The notes under the pieces: model-generated
What the model was told of the DNA's origin: nothing
Seen by the model: only the letters and a program-made list of their open reading frames with translations
Databases searched by the model: none
Translations under genes and position numbers: made by a program
Source of the DNA: Malacoraja senta
Taxonomy: Eukaryota
Direction of reading: 5' to 3'
Assembly (NCBI GenBank): GCA_038087875.1
Contig: CM075994.1
Span: forward strand, 9,984,001 to 10,048,000
Length of the DNA stretch: 64,000 bases
Shown here: in pieces, positions 1-59,875 of the stretch
Layout: each line of letters begins with the position of its first letter
How positions within the stretch are numbered: the first letter of the stretch is position 1

Positions 1-2214
1 TGCTGATTCAGCTTTTATCTGCATTGCTTCATCCAATACATCTGCTGGGATATTATAATGATCTTTTGTATATTTTTTTAAATAGTCACATATTTGAAAA
101 TATTTAAAATATTGATTATTTCCCAGTTTATATTTTATTTGTAATTGTTGGAATGATATTAATTTTACAGTTTCATACAAGTCACCGAACGTTTTAATTT
201 AATCCCATTGTGTAAAAGATTTGTCTGTAATAGAGGGATTAAACGAAGGGTTATTAACTATTGGAGATAAAAGCGATTGATTTCTTAATTTTACATTTTG
301 TTTTATTTGTTTCCAAGTTCTAATTGTACTATATATAATTGGGTTTTTGATATAATTTATGTTATTCAGTTTCATTGGTGAGAGGAAGATCGCTCCAATA
401 TTACCAGAGGAGCAGTCCTCTCTTTCCATTACAATCCAGTCCACTTGCTGGGCAGAGTTGTCCATCAGTTGGATCATATTTTTTAATATTTACTGACCAA
501 TAATAATACATGAAGTTAGGGAATGCTAAGCCCCCTAATACTTTAGCTTTGTTCAAGTGTGTTCTTTGTATTCTATGGAATCCCATATAAAATTAATAAT
601 GTCTGAGTCCAATTTTTTTTTAAACTTCTTTGGTAGGTATATAGGAATCGATTGAAATAGGTATAAAATTTGTGGTAAGAAGATCATTTTTATTGCATTT
701 ATTCGGCCTATTAAAGGCATCGGAAGCGTTTTCCAAAATTTAATTAATGTATTTAATATATTAAGTAGAGGGTCATAATTTGCTTTGAACATGCCTTGAT
801 ATGTTCTGGTGATTTCAACACCCAAGTATTTACATTTTTCTGTAGCTATTTTAAAAGGGAATTTTAAAAGATGTGTTGAGTCTTTCGGTTTTATTGACAT
901 AATTTCACTTTTATTCCAATTTATTCTGTATCCAGAAAAGGATCCAAAGTCCTCAATTAGATTTAGTATGTTTGGTATAGTAATTTGAGGTTTTGTAATG
1001 TACAATAATATGTCATCCGCGTATAAAGATATTTTATTATTTGAGTATTTAGTATTATACCCATGGATATCTGGATGTGTTCTAATTTTTTCTGCTAAAG
1101 GTTCAATTATGAGAGCAAATAACTGGTGATAATGAGCATCCTTGTCTGTTTCCCCTTGATAGTTGAAATTTCAAGGATAATATGTTATTAGTTAGTATTC
1201 TAGCTGTAGGTTTATTATATAATAATTTAATCCATAAAATAAAATTCTCTCCCAGTTGGAATTTTTGTAATACTTTATCCATTTAATTCCATTCTACTTG
1301 GTCAAATGCTTTTTCAGCGTCCAGCGAAATAATTGATAATTCTTGTTCTTCAATTTTGTGTGAGTGCATTATATTGAGTAGACGTCTCATATTATTAGAT
1401 GAATATCTCTTAGGGATAAACCCCATCTGATCTGGGTTTATTAATTTACTAATATATTTACTTAATCTTCTAGCTAATGTTTTCACTAATATTTTTTGAT
1501 CTGTATTTAACAATGCTATAGCTCTATATGAACCCGGTTCTTCTATATCTTTGTCTTTTTAAGTATTAGTGTGATCGTTGATTCAGCTAATGTATCAGGT
1601 AATATTTGTTTTTTAAAAGCATATTGATACATTTTTTGTAACCGTGGTATAATTTTGTCATAAAAGCTTTTATAAAATTCATTAGTAAATCCATCAGGAC
1701 CTGGAGTTTTTCCATTCTTTAATGAATTTATTGTGTCTTCTAATTCCTTGATTGAAATTTGTGCACCCAATTCATCTTGTTCCTTCAACTCTAACTTTGG
1801 AAGATTACAATTATCCAAGAACTCTGTAATTTTATTGGAGTCCGTTGTCGTTTTAGATGTGCACAAATTCTCATAAAATTGCACAAATCTTTTATTAATA
1901 TCCTTCGGTATGGTTAGTAATTCCCCTCTATCTGATTTAATCTTTTGGATCGTATGTTCTTTTTCTCGGTTTTTTAGCTGACGAGCCAAAAGTTTATGCG
2001 GTTTATCCCCAAATTCAAAGTGTTCCTGTTTTGTAATTTGGAAAAGTCTTATAAGTTTGGCTGATAATAGTTTATTTAATTTAAATTTCAAAATTATTAT
2101 TTTATTATGTTTATCTATTGATGGATATTTAGCATTATCTATATCGATTTGTCTAATAAGTTCTTCTAACCGTCTTTGTTCATTCTTATTCTTTTTATTT
2201 TGAAAAGCTTGGTA

Positions 2215-5200
2215 TAACCATATAACCATATATCCATAACAGCACGGAAACAGGCCATCTCGGCCGTTCAAGTCCGTGCCGAACACTTTTTAAAAAATAA
2301 TTTACTTCCCCCTATTCCCATCCACTCAGACCATAACCCTCCAATCCTTTCCCGTCCATATACCCATCCAATCTATTTTTAAAGGATAACATCGAACCTG
2401 CCTCCACCACTTCCACTGGAAGCTCATTCCACACAGCTACCACTCTCTGAGTAAAGAAGTTCCCCCTAATGTTACCCCTAAACTTCTGTCCCATAATTCT
2501 CAAGTCATGTCCCCTTGTTTGAATCTTCCCTACTCTCAATGGGAAAAGCTTATCCACGTCCACTCTGTCTGACCCGCTCATAATTTTAATGACCTCTATC
2601 AAGTCCCCTCTTAACCTTTTGCGCTCCAAAGAATAAAGACCTAACTTGTTCAACCTTTCTCTGTAACTTAGTTGCTGAAACCCAGGCAACATTCTAGTAA
2701 ATCTCCTCTGTACTCTCTCTATTTTGTTGACATCCTTCCTATAATTAGGCGACCAAAATTGTACTCCATACTCCAGAATTGGCCTCACCAATGCCTTGTA
2801 CAATTTTAGCATTACATCCCAACTTCTACATTCAATGCTCTGATTTATAAAGGCCAGCACACCAAAAGCTTTCTTTACCACCCTATCTACATGAGATTCC
2901 ACCTTCAGGGAACTATGCACAGTTATTCCTAGATCCCTCTGTTCAACCGCATTCCTCAATTCGCTACCATTTACCATGTACTTCCTATTTTGATTTGTCC
3001 TGCCGAGATGTAGCACCTCACATTTGTCAGCATTAAACTCCATCTGCCATCTTTCAGCCCACTCTTCCAAATGGCCTAAATCTCTCTGTAGACTTTGAAA
3101 ATCTACTTCATTATCCACAACACAACCTATCTTAGTATCATCTGCATACTTACTAATCCAATTTTCCACACCATCATCCAGATCATTGATGTACATGACA
3201 AACAACAGTGGACCCAACACAGACCCCTGAGGCACCCCACTAGTCACCGGCCTCCAACCTGACAAACAGCCATCCACCATTACTCTCTGGCATCTCCCAT
3301 TCAGCCACTGTTGAATCCATCTTGCTACTCCACCATTAATACCCAACAATTCCCCCCACACTCTGGGACAGGTGAGGTGGTGTGTCACGCACTATCCCTT
3401 CCCCCAATTTGAGGTTTACTCTTAGAACCCTTTTTAAACAACGGAACAACATGCGCAGTACGCCAATCCTCCGGCACTATTTATTAGAAGTACATTACAT
3501 TACAACCAATTACATTCGTACTCGTCACGTATCTCTTATTACAATTAATGTACTCCGTCATTTTTTACACTAATAAAGGGAAAGGATGAGATTGAGAGAA
3601 AGGAGAAAGTGAAGGGAAATAGTGAAAGTGTAAAAAACGTGACAACAAAAAAGAACAAAGACCCTATAAGAAAGAAATTTAAAAAAAAAGAATTAAGAAA
3701 TAGACCCTAAAAAAGAAGAAAAAAGAGAAAGAGGGAAAAGAGAAAAACAAATACTTTGTTGAAAGCATCACGCAAATGGGATATACCAACTCTCCAGCTT
3801 TCATCCCCCCCTTACCTGACCTCAGTTTTATTTTTTTAAAGTACTTTTGCACCCTATACTTGTAATAATTCTATAAATGCAGACCACGTCAGGTGGAAGT
3901 GATCTGGTTTACCTGCCAGGAGGAGTCTTATCTCTTCTAGGTGTAATGTTTCGAACATATTTGAAATCCACATGTTTATAGTTGGTATTGGAGCGTTTTT
4001 CCAGAATTTTAGGATTAACTTTTTTCCAGTTATTAACCCATAGTCTATTAATTTCTTTTGGAACACATTTAGTTCTGGACTATCTTCCGTTGTTCCGAAG
4101 ATAATCCATTCTGCTTTGGGTATCAGTTTTATTTTTAATAATTTTGAAAAGATTTCAAAAATTTCAATCCAAAATTTTTGAATTTTTGTACAGAGAACAA
4201 ATGAGTGCGGTATAGTAGCTTCTTGAGATTGACATTTATCACAAATGGCTATTCCCGTCTCTAATGACATTTGAACTATTTCTGTCATAGCCCCTGCTAT
4301 TTCTACACTAACTTCCCTCAATGTCCTAGGGAATATCCTGTCAGGACCTGGAGACTTGTCCGTTTTCATATTTTTCAATATCTCCCTAATCTCTTTTGGC
4401 TCTGCAGATAGCTGTCCACTCTGACTCTCTAATGGACCAATTTTATTCCTTGTTATCCTTTTGCTATTAATATAGCTGTAGAAACCCTTTGGATTTACTT
4501 TCACCTTACTTGCCAAAGCAACCTCATATCTTCTTTTTGCTTTTCTAATTTCTTTCTTAATATTATTTTTACATTCTTTATACTCCTCAAGCACCTCATT
4601 TACTCCATGCTGCCTATAATTATTGTAGATCTCTCTCTTTTTCCGAACCGTGTCCAATTTCCCTTGAAAACCATGGTTCTTTCCAATTTTTACTATTTCC
4701 TTTCAACCGAACAGGGACATAAAGATTCTGTACTCTTAAAATTTCACCCTTAAATGTCCTCCATTTCTCTTCTACATCCTTCCCATAAAACAACATGTCC
4801 CAATTCCCTCCTTTTAAATCCTTTCGCATCTCCTCAAAGTTAGCCTTTCTCCAATCAAAAATCTCAACCCTGGGTCCAGTTCTGACCCTCTCCATAATTA
4901 TATTGAAACTAATGGTATTGTGATCACTGGACCCGAAGTGCTCCCCGACGCTTATCTCCGCCACCTGCCCTGTCTCATTTCATAACAGGAGGTCCAGCAC
5001 TGCCCCTTCTCTAGTAGGTACCTCTATGTATTGCTGCAAAAAACTATCCTGCACACATTTTACAAACTCCAAACCACCCAGCCCTTTTACAGAATGTGTT
5101 TCCCAGTCTATGTGTGGAAAATTGAAATCTCCCACAATCACTACCTTGTGCTTACCACTAATATCTGCTATCTCCTTGCATATTTGCTCTTCCAATTCTC

Positions 5201-47777: not shown

Positions 47778-48159
47778 TGCAGATTGTAGCTTTCCGTTCT
47801 TACTATCCGAACTGTCCGTTCTTACTATCTCAATTGGTCGTTCTTACTATCCGAACTGGTAAAAACTGTGTCTTCTCTTCGCGAGCCAGCTCTCGTCTGA
47901 TCTGACCACACGCTGTCGTATAGCTTAGTTCAATGTAAGTCACGCCCATCTACGTAAATCCCACCCCAAAGCGTGCAAACTGATAGAGCAAGAAATATCC
48001 AGCCAAAATAATATAATATACTAACAGTACCTAACATAAGCATAGATGGCTTCTACAATTATTATTATTATTACTATTACTATAATAATAATAATAATAA
48101 TAATTATTATTATTATTATTACTATTATTAATAATAGCGTCCGCAGGTGTGTGTGTGAG

Positions 48160-49250
48160 GTGCTCCTGTTGGGAGCGGCTCACGACCAGGATGTCATCGA
48201 GGTAAATGTAGACAAAGTTCAATCCCCGACCGACCATGTCCATTAGGCACTGGAACTGCGTTCTTCAAACCGAAGGGCATGCGAAGCCACTCAAACAGCC
48301 CGAACGGGGTGATGGTGGCAGTGTTGGGCACGTCTTCCGGGCGCACAAGGATCTGGTGATAATCACGGACCAGGTCCACCTTGGAGAAAAAGGTGGCGCC
48401 CTCCAGATGGGCCGAAAAGTCCTGTATATGTGGGACCGGGTAGCATTCCTCGGTTGTAATGGCGTTCAGGCGTCTGTAATCCCCGCAAGATCTCCGCCCC
48501 CCAGATGACTTATGTGCAATGGGGACGCCCATGAGCTATTGGAGCGGCGCATGATCCCCCATGTCCTCCATCTGCTGGAATTCCTCCCTGGCGACGCGCA
48601 GCTTGTCAGGTGGAAGCCAGCGCGCCCGGGCTTGTAATGGCGGTCCCATGGTAGGAAAATGGTGCGTCACCTCATGCTTGGGGGCCGCCGTGTTGAAACG
48701 GGGGGTGAAGGGCTCCGGGAACTCTGCGAGGAGGGAGGCATATGGGCCCTCTACTTCAGCCACTGCGTTGAGCTGCGGGCAGGGTGCCATCGCGGGTCGC
48801 GGGGCCGAGGTCAGCCGGTGGAATAAGGCGCCCGCCCCGTACGTCCACCATGACGGAAAAGGCCGGAAGGAAGTCAGCTCCCAGGTAGACAAAAGTGCTG
48901 GAGAAACTCAGCAGATGCAGCGGCATCTATGGAGCGAAGGAAATAGGCTACGTTTCGGGCTGAAACCCTTCTTCAGACTGAAGAAGGGTTTCAGCCCTAA
49001 ACGTTGCCTATTTCCTGCGCTCCATAGATGCCGCTGCACCCGCTGAGTTTCTCCAGCATTTTTGTCTACCTTCGATTTTCCAGCCTCTGCAGTTCCTTCT
49101 TAAACAGTCAGCGCCCAGGAGAGGCTGGGCCACCATTGCGACGACAAATGTCCAAACGTACGGGCGGGAGTCGAAAGAGAGGGATAGGGTCCTCGTGCCT
49201 TAGGTGCGGATAGTACTGCGGTTGACAACCGTGAGGACTGGGCCCCGCTT
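48160..49250 (-). mobile_element. Ty3/Gypsy pol remnant B (protease to RT), decayed
   Basis: Protease-like TFVV...QPLLGADF; CGDYRRLNAIT..YPVPHIQDF..FSKVDLVR.YHQI..TPFGLFEWLRMPFGLKNA; YLDDILV at ~48190-48210. Confidence 0.85.
48886..49105. mobile_element. 220-bp fold-back Penelope-derived element with 14-bp TSD
   Basis: Inverted repeat centred on cttcagactgaag (~48972-48984); TSD AGTCAGC(T/G)CCCAGG at 48872-48885 and 49106-49119. Confidence 0.8.
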
Positions 49251-50705
49251 ACCGAGGCACGGGTGTCACGGTTTTACCAAAGATGAAGTCCTTGAATTTA
49301 ATGCAGGCGAAAACCACTGCGAGCATTTCCTTTTCGATCTGGGTATAGCGCTGTTCAGTGTCAGTGAGTGTATGGGATGCATATGACACGGGCTTGAAAT
49401 CGGCATCAGTAGTGGCCTGCAGGCACGCTGCGCCTAGCCTATACTGGGACGCATCGCAAGTGAGTGTTACCGGAAACTCCAAATCGAAATAGGAGAGTGT
49501 AGGTGAGCTAGCCAGCTGCAGTTTGAGAGTGTCGAAAGCCCTTTGGTGCCGCGGGTACCAGGACCATGCCGCGTCCTTGTGTGTCAGTTCTCACAGGAGG
49601 GCCGATATGTCGCTGAGGTTGGGAATAGATTTTCCCAGGTGGTTAACCATACCGAGGAATCGTTGTAAACTCACGACATCTGTAGGAACCGGCAGTTCGT
49701 TGATAGCTGAAGTTTTCAGCGGATCTGGTCTGAGACCGTCGCTGGTAAAAACATGTGATCTCAGGAACTCGAAACCTGCACTTTACTCCTTTAGTGGATT
49801 GAGTTTAAGCTGAATGTCTTTGGCACGGTCAAGTACTCTCTTCAGATTGGCGTCATGTTCAGCCAAGTCGCGACCGTAGACGAGAATATCATCAACAATA
49901 ATGGCACACAGGTACTCTGAAAACAATTATTCCATAGTGCGGTGGAAGACTTCATTGGCGAAGTTGATGCCGAAAGGCATTCTTAGAAATTTGAAGTGGC
50001 CAAAGGGTGTGCCGAACGTAGTGAGGTTGGATGAGTCTGGGTCTATGTGGAATCTGCCAAAAGGAGCTTTTGGCATCCAGGACCGAGAATACTGCTGCAT
50101 TGCCAATCTGTGCAGCGACATCTTCCGTGGTTCGCGTTGGGTAACGTGGGCGCTTGATGGCAGTGTTAATATCTCTGGGGTTGATGCAGATACGGATCTC
50201 CTCATGGTTTTTCTTAGTTGCAACGACCATGGTGGAAACCCAGTCGGACGGGTCAGTTACCTCAGCAATAACACCCATTTAGACCATGCGTTTGAGTTCA
50301 GCGTGTATTCTGTCGCGCATGGCATGTGGGACACGATGTGGTGCTCGGACCACGGGTGTAACTTTAGGATCAACAGTAATGCGATATTTGACAGGCAACT
50401 TACCAAGTTCATCATTAAACAGGTCTTTGTATTGAGAGAGTAGTTGCTGTTCTGGTCTTCAATTGGAGGCATGGGTTCGAATCCCACTTCTGACACCATG
50501 TAATGATGTGACCCGAACAAACATTAAGATACAACACATATTTATTAAATCACTTACAGCATAGGATCTGCAGTATGTTACAGCTCCGAGCTGCTACATC
50601 TACTTGCTGGCATAGGCGAGCTCTTGATATTATAAAGCACATACTAGGCGGAGCTACTACTAACAAATACTATGATTGGCTAGCATGCAGTAGCCAATCT
50701 ACAAA
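49250..50705 (-). mobile_element. Ty3/Gypsy remnant A: partial 5' LTR (50499-~50705), tRNA-Leu PBS, RT-RNase H; gag and protease missing
   Basis: LTR ends ...CATTACA directly before TGGTGTCAGAAGTGGGAT and contains CCAAT, TATAA and AATAAA. Pol motifs WVSTMVV, IRICINPRDIN, FSVLDAKSSFWQI, FLRMPFG, IIVDDIL, LTCDASQY.LGA, RYTQIEKEMLAVVFAC. Confidence 0.88.
50449..50498 (+). other. Copy of the 3' half of tRNA-Leu including CCA (extended primer-binding site); not a functional tRNA gene
   Basis: GTTCTGG-TCTTCAATTGGAGGC-ATGGGTTCGAATCCCAC-TTCTGACA-CCA: 3' anticodon stem, long variable arm, T arm, acceptor strand and encoded CCA; the 5' half is absent. Confidence 0.85.
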
Positions 50706-51079
50706 TATTATTATTAGTAGTACTGTTGTTGTTGTTATATTATCATTATTGTTGGTATTATTATAATAATATTATTATTATTGTTGTTATTATTATAATA
50801 TTATTATTGTTGTTGTTATTATTATATTATTATTATTATTGTTGTTGTTATTATTATTATTATATTATTATTGTTGTTATTATTATTATTATTATATTAT
50901 TATTATTGTTGTTATTATTATATTATCATTATTGTTGTTGTTATTATTATTATATTATTATTATTATTATTGTTATTATATTATTATTGTTGTTATTATT
51001 ATATTATCATTATTGTTGTTGTTATTATAATAATATTATTATTATATTTGTTATTATTATTGTATTATTATTATTGTTG

Positions 51080-51110
<31 letters not shown>

Positions 51111-51299
51111 ATTATTATTGTTGGTGAGTGAGCGAGTGAGCAAGTGAGCAAGTGAGCAAGTGAGTAAGTGAGTAAGTAAGTAGTACACAGGACAAGATGC
51201 TAAGAAGTCCCTTGTGCCAATAGGTGGGGAGCATTTCACGACATTCGTTGATTGTTGAGAGTGGTAGACGCTCAACATCGGGGGGGGGGGGGGGTAAGC

Positions 51300-54200
51300 T
51301 TCAGGACAGTTGGGCACAGGACACATCATCAGTAGTGTACCCTTGCATCACTGGGTGTTTCGGCCTTTTAACACTATACACCCTCCACAAGGGCGGCCCG
51401 CTGCAGGATGATGAACCCTCAGCGCGTGTCCCATGTCAAACCATCCCAAAGATTCATCCCAACATACTTGGGGCCCAGCATGGGTCTTTCCGCTTGAGCC
51501 AAATCCACCGGCTGCTTCCTTCAGCCGCCTCTGAAAGTGATCTTATGGTCTTCCGCAGAGCCTGACCGTGGATTCCAAGCTCCTTCAGCAGTCTGATGGT
51601 AGATGACGCAACAAATCCTCTGCATCCCACTTCAACTGGATAGACTTTGGTGTTCCAGCCATGCTGCGTTGCCTCTGCTGCAAGCTCTGCGTAGCGCAGC
51701 TTCTTACGCTCATAGGCCTCCTCAACAGAGTTCTCCCATGGAACTGTGAGCTCTATGATGTAAGCAGTCTTCTGTGAAGGGGACCAGAACACCAAGTCTG
51801 GCCTGAGGTTGGTGGAAGCAATTTCAGGTGGAAACATTAGTTGTCGGCCGATGTCCGCCAGCATCCTCCAGTCACGGGCCCTGCATAGGTTTCCTTCTTC
51901 TGATCTGGTGGAAGGAAATTTAGATGTTTTCTGTCCTTCTCGGACAAAGGTTGTTACCCTTAGGGGGGGGGGGGGGTTGCTTGCTCTCGGAGGCAAGGAG
52001 TTGGTCGCACACCGCCTGTTATCAAGGGCTGATGCCAGGCTTTTTAGTACCTGATTATGCCGCCACGTGTATCTCCCTTGCGTGAGGCTGGTCTTGCAGC
52101 CTACCATGATGTGTTTGAGGGTCGCTGGAGTTGGGCAGATAGCACAGGTTGGATCCGCGCCGTACCACTGATGGAGGTTCTTTGGTGATGGAAGCACGTC
52201 ATATGTCGCTCTGATGATGAAGCTGATCTTGCTTGCTTCCATTTCCCATAGTTCTTTCCAGCTGATCTTCCTTCGCTCCACACCTTCCCACTGCATCCAT
52301 TGCCCCTGTTTGGCCAGAGAGACCGCCTTTGCACTTCTTGCGGCCTCCTCCTGTCGCCGCACCTCCTCGACCACCATCGTCCTCCGCTCTGATGTTGTGG
52401 CCTTTCGCCAAGTTGGTTTACTTGTCGTAAGGCCAAAGCCTCCTCTTCCCAGCTGGACTTGCCCCACTATGTCTTTGTGCCTCAGGGCTGATGAAGCTTG
52501 CTGTACTGCCTCAGATGGTGTCCACTTCCGGCCAGTTGCTAGGGGTGGCGCAACAGCACTGATGGTCTTGTCTCTAGAGTCCCTCAGTGTCATCTGGAGT
52601 CTTACTTTAGAACACTTATATTCCTCTGTTAGACTAGTGAGAGGTAGTTCCAGGACCCCTTTGCCATAGAGGCCGATGTTAGTTAGACATCGTGGGACAC
52701 CGAGCCATTTCTTCGCGTATGAAGTTATGGTTCGCTCCATCTTCTCCACAGTTGTTATTGGGGCTTCATAAACGGTCAGTGGCCACATTGTCCGAGGAAG
52801 GAGTCAAAACTGTAGGCACCAGAGCTTCAGTTTCCCAGGCAGTAGGGTCTGATTGATGTTCTCCAGGCCGTTGACAATTTCTTGCCTTAGTTGTTGCACC
52901 TGCTCTTTGTCCTTGAGACTTGCGTTGTACCATTTGCCCAGGCTTTTAACTGGCTGCTCAGACACTGTTGGTATTGGGTCGTCACCGATACAGAACCTTG
53001 TGTCTCTAAGCACCCCCTTGACTATGGAGATGCTTCGAGATTTACTTGGTTTGATTTTCATTCGGGCCCACTTGATGTTCTCCTGCAGCTTTCCAAGTAG
53101 CCGCTTGGTGCATGCTGCAGTAGTGGTTAGTGTTGTCATGTCGTCCATGTATGCCCTGATGGGTGGCAGATGGAGCCCAGCCCTGATTCGTTCACCGCCC
53201 ACCACCCATTTTGAGGCCCTGATGATGACTTCCATGGCCATTGTAAAGGCCAAGGGTGAGACTGTGCAGCCTGCCATGATGCCTACTTCCAAGCGCTGCC
53301 ATGTTGTACTGAAGTCAGCTGTTGTGAAGCACAGCTGCAGGTCTTGGTAATATTTCTTGACCAGTGTGGTGATGAGCTCTGGTACATGGAAAAAGGCAAA
53401 AGATTCCCAAAGGAGTTCATGGGGAACTGAACCAAATGCAGTGGCCAGATCAAGGAAGATCACATGTAGGTCTCTCTTGTCCTTCTTAGCTGCTTGGATC
53501 TGGTGCCAGATCATGCTTGTATGCTCCAAGCAGCCCGAAAATCTTGGAATTCCTGCTTTCTGTACAGATGTATCAATGTATTTGTTTGTTACCAGATAGG
53601 TGGACAGCCTTTGTGATACAATGTTGAAAAAGATTTTTCCCTCGACGTTGAGGAGACATATTGGCCGGAATTGGCTGATGTCTGACGCATCCTTTTCTTT
53701 AGGTATTAGCATGCCGCCGGCCCTTCGCCATGCCTTAGGTATTGTTTGCTTCTTCCACACCACCCTCATGAGCTTCCATAGAAAGCGTAACACATCCGGT
53801 GCGTTCTTGTAGAGTTTGTATGGTACTCCGTTTGGCCCCGGAGCTGATGCTGCTCTTGCTCGCCGGACCGTGTTCTCCACCTCTTTCCATCTCGGAGGGC
53901 TGGTGTCCAGGTTGAATTCAGGTGGTTGAATAGGCGGGATGTCATGTGGGATGACTAACTGCTCATGCCTTTTCGTGTCTTTGTGGGCCTTTTCCAGGTG
54001 TTCCTCCAATTCCTGTTTTGATATTTTCAAAGTTCCACTTTTTTCCTTTGCGAAGAGGTCTTTGATGAACTTGAAAGGGTCTTTATAGAACCGTGTTCTT
54101 TCTTCTTGCGAAGTTTCCTCAAGTTCTCTGCTTTTCGCAAGGTTGCCAATCGGTTCTTGATGTCCTCTTGGAGTAGCATGAGACCTTCTCTCTCTGCGTC

Positions 54201-54916
54201 AGTTACTTTTTTCCATTGCTTTTTCAACCGTCTCCTCTCTCTGATTAGCCTCTCGATCTCCTGCTGCCTCCTGGACTTGATTGGTGTTGGTAATTTCTTT
54301 CCACCTCTCCCTTTACTCACCCCAAACCGTTCTTCTCCATAGCTGTAGATTGTGTTGCCCATCCTTTCAAGCTTTTCCACTGCTGTGCCCGTTTGTTGCT
54401 CCAAGATATGTATAAGGTCACTGTTGACCATCTCCCACTCTTTCTTTTCAACAGGTTTGGACCATTTCACTCCAGGTTTGTGCCCTTTGATCTTTCCCTC
54501 CAATGGAGGTCTTTGTAGTTGTTGCGTGGGCTCCTCCATCAGCATTTCTGTGCTTGTATCACCCTCTTCAGTGACATGGGTGCTGATGCTCTGCGAACTT
54601 TGGTTTGTGTCCCGTCGCTGTGCTTCACTCGACTGATTTGACTGGTTGCTTCGTAAGAAGTACTGGTCAATGCGAGGCCCATGTTTCTGCTCTCTCAAGC
54701 ACTTTTTCTTCCCTTGGTGGATCTTCAAGCCCTTCACTGATGTTATTTTCTCCCAACCACAGATGCACACCTGAAGTTTGTGTCCCGCAGCTGTTGTGGA
54801 TGTCTCATGTGCCATGCTCTCCTTGTCCGTAGTCGTTTCCGTTCCTGGGTCTGTAACCATGTTATCAATCGGTGAGCCATCTTCCGCCCCCGCTCTCGCA
54901 GGCTCTAGGGGTATTC
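51300..54916 (-). mobile_element. Near-full-length HERO-like non-LTR retrotransposon (R2 superfamily; RT plus restriction-like endonuclease), two frameshifts
   Basis: N-terminal Zn finger CICGWEK...GLKIHQGKKKC; RT APGPNG, FRPICLLNVEGK, FLDLATAFGSVPH, GIMAGCTVSP, YMDD; CCHC knuckle CAIC..ATLKHIMVGC; RYTWRHN; RLE motif LRPDLV...IIELTVPWE; stop at 51454. Frameshifts near 54030-54090 and 52790-52805. Confidence 0.88.
51318..51383 (-). ncRNA. Candidate non-circularly permuted hammerhead ribozyme in the HERO 3' UTR
   Basis: RNA GGGUG-UA|UAGUGU-UAAAAGGCC-GAAA-CACCC-(14 nt)-ACACUA-CUGAUGA-UGUGUCCU: perfect 6-bp stem III and stem I, intact CUGAUGA/GAAA/UH core, imperfect stem II. Confidence 0.65.
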
Positions 54917-55320
54917 TGTGATCTCTTGTCCTCGACTCTCCCACTAGTGGAAACATCCTCTCCACATCCACTCTGTCCAGGCCCTTCACTATTCGGTAAG
55001 TTTCAATTAAATCTCCCCTCATCCTTCTAAACTCCAGCAAGTTCAGGCCCAGTGCCGTCAAATGCTCATCATATGTTAACCCAATCATTCCTGGGATCAT
55101 TCTTGTAAACCACCTCTGGACCCTCTCCAGGGCCAGCACATCCTTCCTCAGATATGGGGCCAAAAAATGCTCACAATACTCCAAATGTGTTCTGACCAGT
55201 GCCTTATAGAGTCTCAGCAAAGCATGCCTGTTTTTGTAAGGTAGCCCTCTTGAAACAAATGCTAGCATTGCGTTTGACTTCCTTACTACCGATTCTACTT
55301 GCAAAGTAACTTTTTGGGAG
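54917..55320 (-). mobile_element. CR1 fragment abutting the HERO 5' end, giving an in-frame chimeric ORF
   Basis: LYKALVRTHLEYC...RMFPLVGESRTRDH joined to RIPLEPARAG. Confidence 0.8.
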
Positions 55321-56404
55321 TTGGGAGTTGGAGAGAGTGGGAATAAAGTTGGAAGAAAAGTGGGAGAGAGTTGGAAGTAAGACAGGAGAAAATTAGATGA
55401 AGTAAGTTTAGTAAATAAGTAAGTAAGTAAGTTTATTGGCCAAGTATTCACATACAAGGAATTTGCCTTGGTGCTCTGCCCACAAGTAACAACATAACAT
55501 ACAGTGACAGTTACGAATGACTCAGAAAACACTAAACATTAATAATAATAAAACATTAATGATAAAACACCGTTGATCAAGCATGTGAACCAACAAAATA
55601 CCAGATCAAAGGGAGGCTACACATTTTTGGCTGTTGAGTAGAGCAACTACTCGTGGATAAAAACTGTTTTTATGTCTGGCTGTGGCAGCTTTGACAGTCC
55701 GGAGTCGCCTTCCAGAGGGAAATGATTCAAAGAGTTTGTGGCCAGGGTGAGAGGGGTCAGAGATGATCTTGCCCGCTCGCTTCCTGGCCCTTGCAGTGTA
55801 CAGTTCATCAATGGAGGGAAGGTTGCAGCCAATAATCTCCTCTGCTGATCGGACGATTTGATGTTATTATTATAATATTATTATTATTATTATTATTATT
55901 TTTATTTTTATTATTATCATATTATTATTATTATTGTTGTTGTTGTTATATTATTATTATTGTTGTTATTATTATTATTATTATTGTTATCATCATTATG
56001 ATTATAATCAAAGATGATAGAGCGGTTTGATTATAATCAGAGATCATAGCTCCGCTCTATAATAATAATAATAATAATAATGGATGGGATTTATATAGCG
56101 CCTTTCTAATACTCAAGGCGCTTTACATCGCATTATTCATTCACTCCTCAGTCACACTCGGTGGTGGTAAGATTCACACAGATTCACACAGATTCACACA
56201 CATTCACACACATTCACACGCAGGCAAATGTGGGTGAAGTGTCTTGCCCAAGGACACAACGACTGTATGCACTCCAAGCGGGATTGCTATGGTCTTTGAT
56301 TATAAGTATGATGATTATTATTAGATATCCGAGGGGGATTTGTCCCTGATCCTGGACCGCGTCACCGCCAGCCCCCCTGTGACGGGTTGTGGGAGGGTCG
56401 TTCT

Positions 56405-56460
56405 GTGATTGGTGGGATTGTTGCGGGGCGGGGCGGGGCGGGGCGCGGCTATAAAGGGGG
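56405..56460 (+). promoter_or_regulatory. Core promoter of the second H1-related gene: inverted CCAAT, four tandem GC boxes, TATA box
   Basis: ATTGG 56408-56412; (GGGGC)x4 56425-56444; TATAAA 56450-56455, ~90 nt upstream of the ATG. Confidence 0.75.
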
Positions 56461-56543
56461 GTGAGGGCGGCGCTGAGCGTCAGCTGCGGGCTGGAGGGAG
56501 AGGAGGCGGTGGCTTGTGTCCGAGCTACTACGCGCAACTTCAG

Positions 56544-57041
56544 ATGGTTGCCAGACCCAGACCTAAAACCGTGCCCGGCGCCGCGCCCGCCCCACGACGC
56601 CGAGGGCGGCCTTACCGGCGGAGCCGGCGGACGCAGCAGCTGATCGTGCAGCTGATGAGGCAGGCGGTGTCGGCGCACCGGCGACTCAGCCGCCGCTCGC
56701 TGCTGGCGCTGCGGGAGTTCGTGCGCTCCAACGGCTACGACGAGGAGGAGAACCGCAAGAACATGCGCAAGGCCGTGTCGGGGCTGACGCCGGACAGCTC
56801 GCAGGAGGAGGAGCAGCCCCCGCCTGCACCCCGCGGCCGCAGGAAGGTGGCGACGGCCACCACCGCCTGCCTCCGCCTCGACCGCGAGCAGAAGGCCGAG
56901 AAGAAGCTGCAGCAGGAGCAGGAGCAAGAACCGGAACAACGCCGGGCTCCGTCCGAGAAGCGAGCGCCGCCGAAAAAAGAGCTCATCCGCAGGAAAAAGG
57001 AGGCGAAATGTTGCAATCCGGTGGGGGCCAAGTGCTGTTAA
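56544..57041 (+). CDS. Divergent H1-related basic protein (165 aa, intronless) with partial winged-helix domain and C-terminal Cys pairs
   Basis: Intact ORF in a CpG island with GC-rich third positions, TATA promoter and AATAAA at 57272 and 57344. RPYRR...QAVSA...SLLALREFVRSNGYD...MRKAVSGL aligns by eye with RPYRH...RAVAA...SVAAVKKLLSASGYD...VNRAVRTL of the H1 at 34 kb. Confidence 0.75.
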   Translation: MVARPRPKTVPGAAPAPRRRGRPYRRSRRTQQLIVQLMRQAVSAHRRLSRRSLLALREFVRSNGYDEEENRKNMRKAVSGLTPDSSQEEEQPPPAPRGRRKVATATTACLRLDREQKAEKKLQQEQEQEPEQRRAPSEKRAPPKKELIRRKKEAKCCNPVGAKCC

Positions 57042-57625
57042 AGGACATTTCTGTGCTGCTGCGTGGCCCTGCGCCGTCGCAGCCAGATTCACCACAATTT
57101 AAACGAAATAGTCAATAATTCTTTATTTCTCTTTTATTTTAAACTTCGACGGCTCCACCACGTTGCAGGGAATCCTCCCCTTTCCGAAAACTGCCCGCGT
57201 TTTGGAAACTGGGAAGGAGCGAAAACGCAACGAGGCCGAGCGGGTTTCTAATGCGCTTCGACGGCCAGTGCAATAAATGGCGGGTCATCCTCACGGGACG
57301 GGTTTGGGAAGGCGCGGCGGGCAGGATTAATGGGAATAGAGTCAATAAAACGGAGAAAATCAGAATTAGTAGCAGCAATTAGGCGTGGGAAGGGAAGAAC
57401 GGATTGGCTCTTCCTCGTCTGCCCCTACTTGCCAAAAGTGGCTACTAGCCCTCATAGTTCCTCGAATTTCGGACACTGGTGGATACCTATTCTCTTTCTG
57501 CAGAGATGCTGCCTGGCCCCTTATTTTAGAATAAGCCATTTACAACGGAGATGAAACACGTTTTCACACAGATTTGTGTGGCGGTGGAGGCCGGTTCTCT
57601 GGATGCTTTCAAGAGAGCTAGATAG

Positions 57626-57938
57626 CAAAGATACTAGAGATCATAGAATTCATATGGCCCAGAGACCTTTCATTGCGCATTGTTGCTCATTTTATACGCA
57701 CCCTTAAAAAAACTTTTTTTAAAGGAGCACCTTATTTATTATCAAAGATAATAATGGTCTAACATGGAAGGCTAAGACACCAAGATAAACTGCAAAATTC
57801 AATGGACTGACGTGGATTAAACTGCGAGAGGCATGACGGAGATCGGGGTCTTATTCCTAAAGTGGCGTTGCGATCCGTACTACACGTCAGTTGGATTGGA
57901 TTTCGTAGGAGTGGTCTATCTTGGCTCTAGTATCTTTG
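57626..57938. mobile_element. Non-autonomous TIR DNA transposon (CAAAGAT family) with 8-bp TSD
   Basis: TIR CAAAGATACTAGAG / CTCTAGTATCTTTG; TSD CTAGATAG at 57618-57625 and 57939-57946; shares subterminal tactacacgtcag and aggagtggtctatcttg with 40168-40540. Confidence 0.88.
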
Positions 57939-59296
57939 CTAGATAGGGCTGTTAAAGATAGCGGAGTCGGGGGATATGGAGAGAAGGCAGGAACGGGGTA
58001 CTAATTGGGGATGATCACATTGAACCATGGCTGATTCCCAAGAACCCTCTGTGGCTTAAGTCCTCCCACCACCACCTCCAGTTGAAATTCCATTTGGAAT
58101 ATTTTGGAGGACCAGGAAACTAAGAATGGCGGTGCTGGCTCGAAGGGCTGAATGGCCCACTCCTGCACCTATTGTCTATTGAGTTGCGCCAACAATTTGT
58201 GTCTTATCCTCAAAGACGTACATATACGATGTCTGTTTCTACTATAGTAGATTCCAATCGGCTTTTATTAGGCACATGAATATGGATCTTTTTTAGGCAG
58301 ATGAGATTAGGTTATTATGTTCGGCACATAAATTTATGAGCAGAAGGAACTGTTCATGTGCTGTAATTTTCTTTGCTGTATGTTAAGGGACGAATTTCCC
58401 CAGCTAATGAGATTGCGACGTGCACAAACTAAAAATACACTCCTATACATGCTTTTGTCCATATCCCTTCATAACAACATTCAGCAAAACCTGGCGCCGT
58501 GTGAGTTTTTAAATAAACATTGCCTCATTGGGGAAGTATCCATTTTTCATTGCCCTCTGGAAATTACAATGAAATAAGCAGCATTTTCCCTGCCTTTCAC
58601 TGGGCTACTCTCCAGGTAACGCGTGAAACAATGACATTCGCGCCCTTTTGGGGCTGGGTCCCTTTGATCCCTGGCGATTTTTGATGAAGGACGTCTTGAC
58701 GTACTTTTGAAAGCGTTCCATTGTTATGGACAGGATTATCCTTTCTGTTTTCAGTGGGAGGGTATAGCAACGTTATCAGTTGATGAATTTGGTATTTCAG
58801 GGAACAGGGATACAATCTCTGGGTTTTGGCACACATTGGGCAGAAACCGGACTGCAAGCGGGAGATATGGTCAAAGACTTCTGAAATGGAGGATGAAGCA
58901 CAAATGGAGGATGGGTGCATCGGCTCTGAGTCATTTGATCAGATGAACACCGGGTGTCTGTCAAGCTGCCTGACAATGCAAGGTCGAAGGAAGGAACTGT
59001 CGATGCTGGTTTAAACCGAAGATAGACACAAAATGCTGAAGTAACTCAGCGGTACAGGCAGCATCTCTGTTAATGCAAGGTGCCTGCTGCCTTACCTTGT
59101 CTTTAGTTATTAAATATTTTGATAACCCAAACAGAAATATCTGCAGCAAATGGATATTGATCTAATTGAACCTCTGAATTTGCACATTAGCAGCTGGTGA
59201 CGAAGGGGTGGGGGTGAAATTCCCTTGAAATGTCATATCCTACTTGTTCATTGATAATATACCATTTGGGGACACCGGCGTTATGAATTGAGAAAA

Positions 59297-59875
59297 TGCA
59301 GTTGTACAGAGCCATAGTGAGACCACATCTGGAATATTGTGTGCAATTTTGGTCCCCTAATTTGAGGAAGGGCATTCTTGCTATTGAGGGAATGCAGCGT
59401 AGGTTTACAAGGTTAATACCCGGGATGGCGGGACTGTCATATGCTGAGAGAATGGAGCGGCTGGGCTTGTACACTCTGGAGTTTAGAAGGATGAGAGGGT
59501 ATCTCATTGAAACATATAAGGTTGTTAAGGGGTTGGACACGCTAGAGGCACGAAACGTGTTCCCGATGTTGGGGGAGTCCAGAACCAGGGGCCACACAGT
59601 TTAAGAATAATGGATAAGCCATTTAGAACGGAGACGAGGAAACACTTTTTCTCACAGAGAGTTGTGAGTCTGTGGAATTCTCTGCCTCAGAGGGCGGTGG
59701 AGGCCGGTTCCCTGGATGCTTTCAAGAGAGAGCTACATAGAGCTCTTAAAGATGGAGGGGTCAGGGGATATGGGGAGAAGGCAGGAACGGGGTACTGATT
59801 GGGGATGATCAGCCATGGTCACATTGAATGGGGGTGCTGGCTCGAATGGCCTACTCCTGCACCTATTGTCTATTT
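59297..59875 (+). mobile_element. CR1 3' fragment
   Basis: [20 protein letters not shown]...; CR1 3' UTR. Confidence 0.9.

What the first reader, a model, noticed from the sequence alone, without database searches (positions are those of the whole stretch)
51318..51383. Non-circularly permuted (pseudoknotted) hammerhead ribozyme in the 3' UTR of a HERO-like retrotransposon
Seen: ~70 nt after the element's stop codon, the sense (-) strand reads GGGUG-UA|UAGUGU-UAAAAGGCC-GAAA-CACCC-AGUGAUGCAAGGGU-ACACUA-CUGAUGA-UGUGUCCU. GGGUGU pairs with ACACCC (stem III, including the A15.1-U16.1 pair) and GUA is a valid NUH cleavage triplet (predicted cut between 51377 and 51376). UAGUGU pairs perfectly with the ACACUA directly before CUGAUGA (stem I). 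GUCCU/AGGCC can form an imperfect stem II. Established: type I/II/III hammerheads are circular permutations of the order UH, CUGAnGA, GAAA. Here the order is UH, GAAA, CUGAUGA, which is not a circular permutation, so standard hammerhead searches would miss it. R2-superfamily elements are known mainly for 5' HDV-like ribozymes. Non-circularly permuted hammerheads have been reported in the literature; I cannot tell whether this family is among them. Inference: self-cleavage could define the RNA 3' end or regulate the template. Because the motif survives intact in the insertion, cleavage would have to be slow, conditional or re-ligated.
Basis: partly seen in the sequence, partly recalled or inferred. 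Interest (0 to 1): 0.85.

Follow-up and report, generated by a model that had tools for sequence, protein, structure and literature searches.

The report
Split-core hammerhead in tandem HERO LINEs
A family of jumping genes carries in its tail a conserved, knotted RNA fold with every hallmark base of a self-cutting hammerhead ribozyme but wired in an order I found no report of, and its genomic copies run head-to-tail past one full length, which suggests that the fold likely cuts the RNA into units that are closed into circles and copied back into the genome.

Summary
It lies 70 nt after the stop codon of a young HERO-clade LINE. 53 of 66 testable relatives (34-79% protein identity) carry it, with compensatory changes in stems I and III. 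The A9-G10.1 link is thus opened and two helices inserted, a permutation that Eckert et al. 2023 assumed impossible; their type-SGC ribozymes came from metatranscriptomes only. Position 17 is never G (0 of 36) and one lineage swaps C3-G8 for U3-A8, as expected of an active core. The cut does not set the RNA 3' end: insertions end 205 nt further on, 0 of 452 copies start at the cut, and 28 of 72 insertions run seamlessly past one 3,954-nt unit. Best reading: the ribozyme cuts out unit-length RNA, which is circularised and reverse-transcribed by rolling. Fold about 0.95, cleavage about 0.8, circle about 0.55. No cleavage or circle was shown here.

The parts
51184..54917 (-). 5'-truncated copy of a young HERO-clade non-LTR retrotransposon (unit positions 410-3954, then 1-197, counting from the cut site); one ribozyme only
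   Evidence: 97.6% identical to a natural 3,954-nt unit from L263; RT domain PF00078; in-frame stop at 52804-52806 and a frame change near 54030-54198
51454..52803 (-). C-terminal part of the ORF: CCHC knuckle and restriction-like endonuclease, ending at the stop codon
   Evidence: motifs read from alignment A1; domain names from established knowledge, no Pfam hit
51425..51435 (-). P0 5' strand, pairs with the strand after CUGAUGA
   Evidence: -16.0 kcal/mol duplex; own 7.69 bp versus swapped 4.02, 0 of 10,000 permutations
51399..51424 (-). Pa hairpin, flush between the P0 5' strand and G10.1
   Evidence: -11.3 kcal/mol; flush by an automated rule in 22 of 36 sequences
51395..51398 (-). stem II 5' strand (G10.1 at 51398), displaced upstream of the cleavage site
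   Evidence: positions 1-4 paired in 36, 36, 35 and 35 of 36
51387..51394 (-). P4 5' strand (helix joining the distal ends of stems I and II)
   Evidence: -11.8 kcal/mol with 51346-51339; 5 of 6 pairs with double changes
51371..51383 (-). Block S: stem III 5' strand, U16.1 (51378), A17 (51377), predicted cut, stem I 5' strand
51353..51365 (-). Block G: stem II 3' strand, GAAA (G12 at 51361), stem III 3' strand
   Evidence: GAAA invariant in alignment A2, by construction of the set
51326..51346 (-). P4 3' strand, stem I 3' strand and CUGAUGA (C3 at 51332, A9 at 51326)
51315..51325 (-). P0 3' strand, starting directly after A9
51184..51222 (-). terminal hairpin just before the fixed 3' end of insertions; its 5' arm could also pair with the P0 3' strand
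   Evidence: -9.4 kcal/mol hairpin, -15.6 alternative duplex; role inferred, conservation not tested

Best explanation
The HERO element's tail folds into a hammerhead-type core whose A9-G10.1 link is replaced by two stacked helices, and this core is predicted to self-cleave and so to cut unit-length RNA out of tandem transcripts, which is likely closed into a circle that the element's reverse transcriptase would copy by rolling from a fixed internal start. Steps: (1) shown: strand order is stem II strand, S, G, stem I strand plus CUGAnGA, with P4 tying stems I and II and P0/Pa closing the gap after A9; (2) inferred: cleavage after position 17; (3) shown: 23 of 77 insertions hold two complete ribozymes one unit apart; inferred: their transcripts yield a 3,954-nt monomer with 5'-OH and 2',3'-cyclic phosphate; (4) inferred: ligation by a host ligase or the ribozyme; (5) shown: insertions begin 203-210 nt downstream of the cut, always cross it, have scattered 5' ends and reach up to 2.2 units; inferred: target-primed reverse transcription on a circle, with more drop-off once the enzyme meets its own first-round product. 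Part confidences: fold 0.95, cleavage 0.8, circular template 0.55.
For: Fold: 53 of 66 testable related loci carry it. On 36 non-redundant sequences mean paired run own versus swapped: stem I 5.31/1.33, III 4.50/2.98, II upstream 4.89/2.48, P4 6.28/4.35, P0 7.69/4.02, each 0 of 10,000 permutations. On an unguided MAFFT alignment 89.0% of cells pair, 155 cells change on both sides, 0 of 500 shuffles reach this, slid controls 34-44%. Different stem versions fall in separate starred clades of the protein tree. Catalysis: position 17 is U, C or A in 36 of 36 although the parser allowed G; position 7 varies; 3-8 pair is C-G 34, U-G 1, U-A 1, the last being the swap reported in natural hammerheads (PMC3088659). 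Circle: 452 exact matches have A before the cut, 0 have another base; no 5' end within 10 nt of the cut; 28 of 72 independent insertions exceed one unit, 22 pass a second cut site, 3 exceed two units; drop-off 0.23 per kb in the first turn versus 0.78 later, p=4e-6, and 0.22 versus 0.76 over the same sequence, p=0.001; 3 ends within 8 nt of exactly one turn versus 0.2 expected. Successive passes share variants: 45 shared minor alleles versus 11 expected, 22 discordant versus 127. In 12 of 47 related contigs the tail runs straight into the conserved 5' UTR motif.
Against: No cleavage, ligation or circular RNA was observed; the RNA look-up gave only contigs of runs guessed to be RNA. I found no precedent for activity with helices between A9 and G10.1. 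Covariation proves the fold, not catalysis. The drop-off jump can also come from later recombination between repeats or from transcript starts in the upstream copy; the sample needs an exact 27-mer, which favours young and two-motif insertions; the one-turn window was chosen after seeing the data. Shared variants between passes fit read-through of one parent array equally well. Only 11 double-change-rich families' worth of independence can be assumed loosely: related sequences inflate shuffle tests, and one of five tool measures was reached by 25 of 500 shuffles. A Penelope-like element uses uncleaved RNA in vitro (PMC11167929).
Confidence: 0.55

Rival explanations
1. The ribozyme is active, but reverse transcription uses uncleaved multi-unit transcripts with internal initiation, as proposed for Penelope-like elements. 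Cleavage serves mainly to free an mRNA whose 5' end lies about 335 nt before the start codon and to allow cap-independent translation.
For: Same fold and catalytic signatures. Always crossing the cut and sharing variants between passes fit equally. Penelope-like elements form partial tandems, start internally and use unprocessed RNA in vitro (PMC11167929; PMC6765202). Ribozyme-linked translation is reported for viruses and LINE HDV-like ribozymes (PMC13725137).
Against: Read-through with 5' truncation can only shorten arrays; it needs another process to keep producing 1.1-2.2-unit insertions with scattered 5' ends. No sharp pile-up marks a transcript start beyond the three one-turn ends.
Confidence: 0.25
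2. The fold is a non-catalytic docking structure for the element's protein that only resembles, or descends from, a hammerhead (the reading of earlier finding e1-7941993).
For: P0 does occupy the strand that would form stem II in type-SGC. The motif is intact in every insertion sampled. 3' UTR structures bind R2-type proteins (established knowledge).
Against: The conflict disappears because an upstream strand supplies stem II with the canonical G10.1-Y11.1 pair in 35 of 36. A docking site gives no reason to avoid G at position 17, free position 7, or swap C3-G8 to U3-A8. Insertions start 205 nt away from it in this family.
Confidence: 0.12
3. The ribozyme makes linear monomers and the reverse transcriptase jumps from the 5' end of one to the 3' end of the same or another molecule.
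For: R2 reverse transcriptase can jump between templates (reference listed; details recalled).
Against: Every insertion would have to jump after 205 nt without ever stopping or adding a base: 0 of 452 copies show another base before the cut. Jumps between RNAs of different loci are excluded by shared variants.
Confidence: 0.05
4. One reading: cleavage sets the 3' end of the template RNA.
For: The motif lies in the apparent 3' UTR.
Against: 74 of 77 insertions end 203-210 nt downstream of the cut, none at it.
Confidence: 0.03

Closest known systems
Type-SGC hammerhead ribozymes (HRIMA-1 and variants; Eckert et al. 2023, PMC10085705)
   Same: Order S, G, CUGAnGA; short linker from stem I to stem II; an extra helix joining stems I and II; all core nucleotides.
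   Different: There the stem II strand follows CUGAnGA directly and block C was assumed unbreakable; here it lies at the 5' end and P0 plus Pa are inserted between A9 and G10.1. Theirs were found only in metatranscriptomes, none in known organisms; these sit in eukaryotic LINE DNA. Theirs are shown to cleave; these are untested.
Penelope-like elements with pseudo-LTR hammerheads (PMC11167929, PMC6765202; PMC4209133 abstract only)
   Same: Autonomous retroelement, partial-tandem head-to-tail copies, hammerhead in the repeated part, apparent internal start of reverse transcription.
   Different: Unrelated RT clade and GIY-YIG endonuclease; minimal type I hammerheads; here an R2-group RT with restriction-like endonuclease and a full monomeric pseudoknotted core.
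Retrozymes (PMC4918200; bioRxiv 10.64898/2026.07.22.740005)
   Same: Two hammerheads one unit apart release a monomer that circularises; cDNA of varying, multimeric length is proposed from the circle.
   Different: Non-autonomous, 0.2-1 kb, type I or III hammerheads; here a 3.95-kb protein-coding LINE.
R2, L1Tc and RTE elements with 5' HDV-like ribozymes (PMC6765202)
   Same: RLE- or LINE-type element with a self-cleaving RNA upstream of the ORF when read in tandem.
   Different: Different ribozyme class; there the cut defines the 5' end of full-length insertions, here no insertion starts at the cut.

Membership tests
Hammerhead ribozyme (structural class) | Core C3 U4 G5 A6 N7 G8 A9, G12 A13 A14 A15.1, U16.1 H17 | tested here: met
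   Window copy matches fully; 33 of 36 have CUGAnGA, others U3-G8, U3-A8, A6U; H17 never G
Hammerhead ribozyme (structural class) | Stems I, II and III flanking the core, with covariation | tested here: met
Hammerhead ribozyme (structural class) | Stem I-II tertiary contact | tested here: met
   P4 helix joins the distal strands; own 6.28 versus swapped 4.35 bp; 78.9% of cells paired
Hammerhead ribozyme (structural class) | Site-specific self-cleavage after H17 | not testable with these tools
   needs in vitro transcription; contigs cannot show ends
Type I, II or III hammerheads (Rfam families) | Circular order S, C, G; Rfam match | tested here: not met
   order is S, G, C; no hammerhead family up to E=5 in window 48000-58000; no Rfam match at gathering score in 7 related loci
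Type-SGC hammerhead (Eckert 2023) | 5'-3' order S, G, CUGAnGA | tested here: met
Type-SGC hammerhead (Eckert 2023) | Uninterrupted block C: stem II strand within 0-2 nt after CUGAnGA | tested here: not met
   first base after A9 pairs with 11.1 in 2 of 36; own 1.03 versus swapped 1.12 bp, 7,074 of 10,000 permutations as high
HERO clade of non-LTR retrotransposons | RT closest to named HERO elements | tested here: met
   by eye, 54 of the first 75 RT residues of HERO-1_BF as printed in the supplement of PMC7650587 match the window frame without gaps; no tree with named references was built
HERO clade of non-LTR retrotransposons | Single ORF with RT, CCHC knuckle and restriction-like endonuclease; little target specificity | tested here: met
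   1,181-codon open frame in intact copies; PF00078; motifs in A1 (names from established knowledge); unrelated flanks in 77 insertions
Retrozyme-like circular replication | Unit-length circular RNA accumulates | not testable with these tools
   only indirect genomic signatures

The most novel reading that the evidence does not exclude
A whole clade of autonomous, protein-coding LINEs (HERO) replicates through a ribozyme-made circular RNA: a hammerhead of a seventh, split-core topology cuts out the unit, the circle is both message and template, and rolling target-primed reverse transcription regenerates the two-ribozyme arrays, so that the element has no 5' end at all.
Probability: 0.5. Interest if true: 0.95.

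Novelty: new variant of a known kind. Interest (0 to 1): 0.87.

Why it matters
It would add a natural hammerhead topology that breaks the block rule used to enumerate the six possible permutations, shows that the A9-G10.1 link can carry whole helices (a new site for engineering switches), and places non-circularly permuted hammerheads in eukaryotic genomes in hundreds of copies, where no standard search sees them. It also makes directly testable the long-proposed idea that autonomous retroelements use circular RNA templates: an R2-group enzyme that starts internally and rolls on a circle would differ from the textbook linear, 3'-end-primed LINE cycle and bears on RNA-templated gene insertion tools, for which circular RNA is a more stable template.

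Tried and rejected
Rfam: no hammerhead in the window stretch or in 7 related loci. Viral contigs: 120 loose pattern matches, none with stem I of 5 bp, used as a control; no related element. Prokaryote genomes: one distant locus, no motif. Search of the own genome with a distant protein returned only the same family among the 96 scored of 3,327 candidates. Idea that insertions start at the cut: rejected. Two apparent 5' ends at the cut (L311, L350) proved to be later insertions inside longer arrays; with L289 and L292 they were corrected, which supersedes the rates. Target-site duplications of 8 nt or more were seen in only 3 of 77 by a simple rule; not pursued. Sequencing runs: no RNA holder listed on record; four guessed-RNA runs held only contigs, which cross the cut site but cannot show ends or circles. 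Shared variants between passes do not separate circle from read-through. A downstream strand that could compete for the P0 3' strand was not tested for conservation. No passage on a helix inserted between A9 and G10.1 was found in PMC10162972, PMC3088659 or PMC3376415.

Full report
Observation. The letters and coordinates are as described. The motif lies 70 nt after the stop codon of an RT-bearing frame. As a control, 0 of 120 viral-contig matches to a loose S-G-C pattern have a stem I of 5 bp or more; the window has 6. Rfam finds no hammerhead here.

The element. The window copy spans 51184-54917 on the minus strand, is 5'-truncated and broken by a stop and a frame change. It belongs to a young family: 1,402 first-look candidates, the 40 scored 98-100% identical; intact copies have a 1,181-codon frame. 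Named protein relatives come from fishes, lancelets and bivalves. By eye, 54 of the first 75 RT residues of HERO-1_BF, printed in the supplement of PMC7650587, match without gaps, so I treat it as HERO clade.

Conservation. A protein-based search, blind to the motif, gave 77 metagenome loci (best 80 kept of 330) and 1 from a genome bin. 66 reach far enough past the stop codon. 47 pass an automated descriptor; 4 more carry it with a variant core or a mismatch (L161, L165, L183, L185); 2 carry it with G12 changed to A (L188, L202): 53 of 66. Two are partial (L175, L227), one shows unrelated sequence (L189), nine distant loci (33-38% identity) show none, and L221 holds a weak candidate for an unsplit type-SGC. 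Hosts of these contigs are not identified and several come from the same assemblies.

The real fold. I reduced window plus relatives to 36 sequences under 85% identity (52 before). Stem I positions 1-5 pair in 35, 36, 35, 35, 33 of 36 with up to five pair types; stem III positions 1-4 in 36, 36, 35, 34. The strand before GAAA pairs with a strand starting 19-23 nt upstream of U16.1: 36, 36, 35, 35, 29 of 36, first pair G-C 30, G-U 5. The base after A9 pairs with 11.1 in only 2 of 36. Registers there were chosen by best pairing, so I repeated the count on a plain MAFFT alignment: 89.0% of cells pair, 155 change on both sides, 0 of 500 shuffles match four of five measures (25 of 500 the fifth), and slid partners pair at 34-44%. 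Relatedness inflates such tests, but distinct stem versions lie in separate supported clades, on both sides of the midpoint root. The order is therefore P0, Pa, stem II strand, P4, S, G, P4, stem I strand, CUGAnGA, P0. A9 leads into P0; Pa sits flush between P0 and G10.1 in 22 of 36 by a strict rule.

Is it catalytic? Not shown. The signatures favour it: position 17 is U 17, C 11, A 8, G 0, though G was allowed; position 7 takes all four bases; the 3-8 tertiary pair is C-G 34, U-G 1, U-A 1. The U3-A8 swap is reported in natural hammerheads (PMC3088659, passages). That a viroid hammerhead tolerates one extra base between A9 and G10.1 is recalled; I saw only the title of that paper.

What the insertions say. 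I took the first 100 of 452 exact motif matches, all on contig C1, which form 77 insertions. 74 of 77 end at unit position 203-210 counted from the cut, so the cut does not set the 3' end. No copy starts at the cut: 452 matches have A before it, 0 another base. After dropping 5 rows (3 duplicates of one event, 2 without an intact 3' end) and correcting 4 split by later insertions, 28 of 72 exceed one 3,954-nt unit, 22 pass a second cut site and 3 exceed two units; 4 are cut off by my fetch. Drop-off is 41 events in 177 kb in the first turn and 27 in 35 kb afterwards (0.23 versus 0.78 per kb, p=4e-6); over the same sequence 0.22 versus 0.76 (p=0.001); three 5' ends lie within 8 nt of one full turn against 0.2 expected, a window chosen afterwards. 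In 39 arrays with overlap (from 84 insertions, including the earlier hand-picked ones) both passes share minor alleles 45 times against 11 expected and differ 22 times against 127. In 12 of 47 related contigs the tail runs into the conserved 5' UTR motif, and L172 has the core at both ends.

Mechanism. A template that is always continuous across the cut, has no 5' end, is copied more than once from one source and is dropped faster after one turn is most simply a circle. 23 of 77 insertions hold two complete ribozymes and could release the monomer. Ligation, internal priming on a circle and strand displacement are inferred. The main rival keeps the ribozyme but uses uncleaved multimers as templates; later recombination between repeats and the exact-match filter could mimic the drop-off pattern. 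A non-catalytic docking role is less likely.

Comparison. Eckert et al. 2023 (PMC10085705; parts 1-6 of 8 read, i.e. main text and start of references; one term search of the supplement; figures and alignments not seen) describe type-SGC hammerheads that cleave, assume that CUGAnGA cannot be separated from its stem II strand, searched RefSeq, and report none in known organisms apart from one bacterial GCS candidate. This RNA works like a type-SGC but is not a member: the defining unbroken block C fails. Penelope-like elements and retrozymes are the closest life-cycle models (passages of PMC11167929, PMC6765202, PMC4918200 and bioRxiv 10.64898/2026.07.22.740005). Passages of PMC13580325, PMC7650587, PMC4640811, PMC5678591, PMC9004415, PMC13725137 and PMC10162972 mention no ribozyme in HERO. 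Nine library searches showed no report of a hammerhead or circular RNA in HERO elements or of a split core; subscription papers, Repbase Reports, preprint supplements and the Eckert alignments could still hold one.

Verdict. Real, conserved, a new topological variant of the hammerhead in a LINE clade, with a testable circular-template model. Interest 0.87.

Noticed in passing
L263 unit positions 206-345 (not in the truncated window copy); relatives such as L166, L167, L173: The 5' UTR holds a motif conserved across distant families, often twice about 60 nt apart, with short hairpins capped by purine-rich loops; a candidate translation or protein-binding element.
   Followed up: partly
L221:3960-4020: Possible unsplit type-SGC hammerhead in the tail of a distant relative (36% identity); 13 bp in all, stems I and II overlap by one base; single sequence.
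   Followed up: partly
L157, L162, L165, L183: Core variants U3-G8 and U3-A8 in related families, suggesting a stepwise change of the tertiary pair.
   Followed up: partly
L311 and L350: Later insertions of 3,282 and 412 bp sit at, or 8-11 nt before, the cut site of the upstream ribozyme; the first ends in a short-repeat tail. Probably chance.
   Followed up: partly
window 48883-49072: Long near-perfect inverted repeat (about 190 nt) that scores against miRNA hairpin models below their thresholds; likely a small non-autonomous DNA transposon.
   Followed up: no
window 56409-57118: GC-rich plus-strand frames with a stretch resembling a linker-histone globular domain and a basic tail (recalled resemblance).
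   Followed up: no
window 48194-50443, 54918-55300, 59287-59604: Broken RT remnants of other retroelements; the HERO copy's 5' end abuts one of them, and its 3' end abuts a long AAT-rich repeat at about 50700-51120.
   Followed up: no
L228: A HERO-like frame on a 2.4-kb contig filed in an archaeal genome bin; likely eukaryotic contamination.
   Followed up: no
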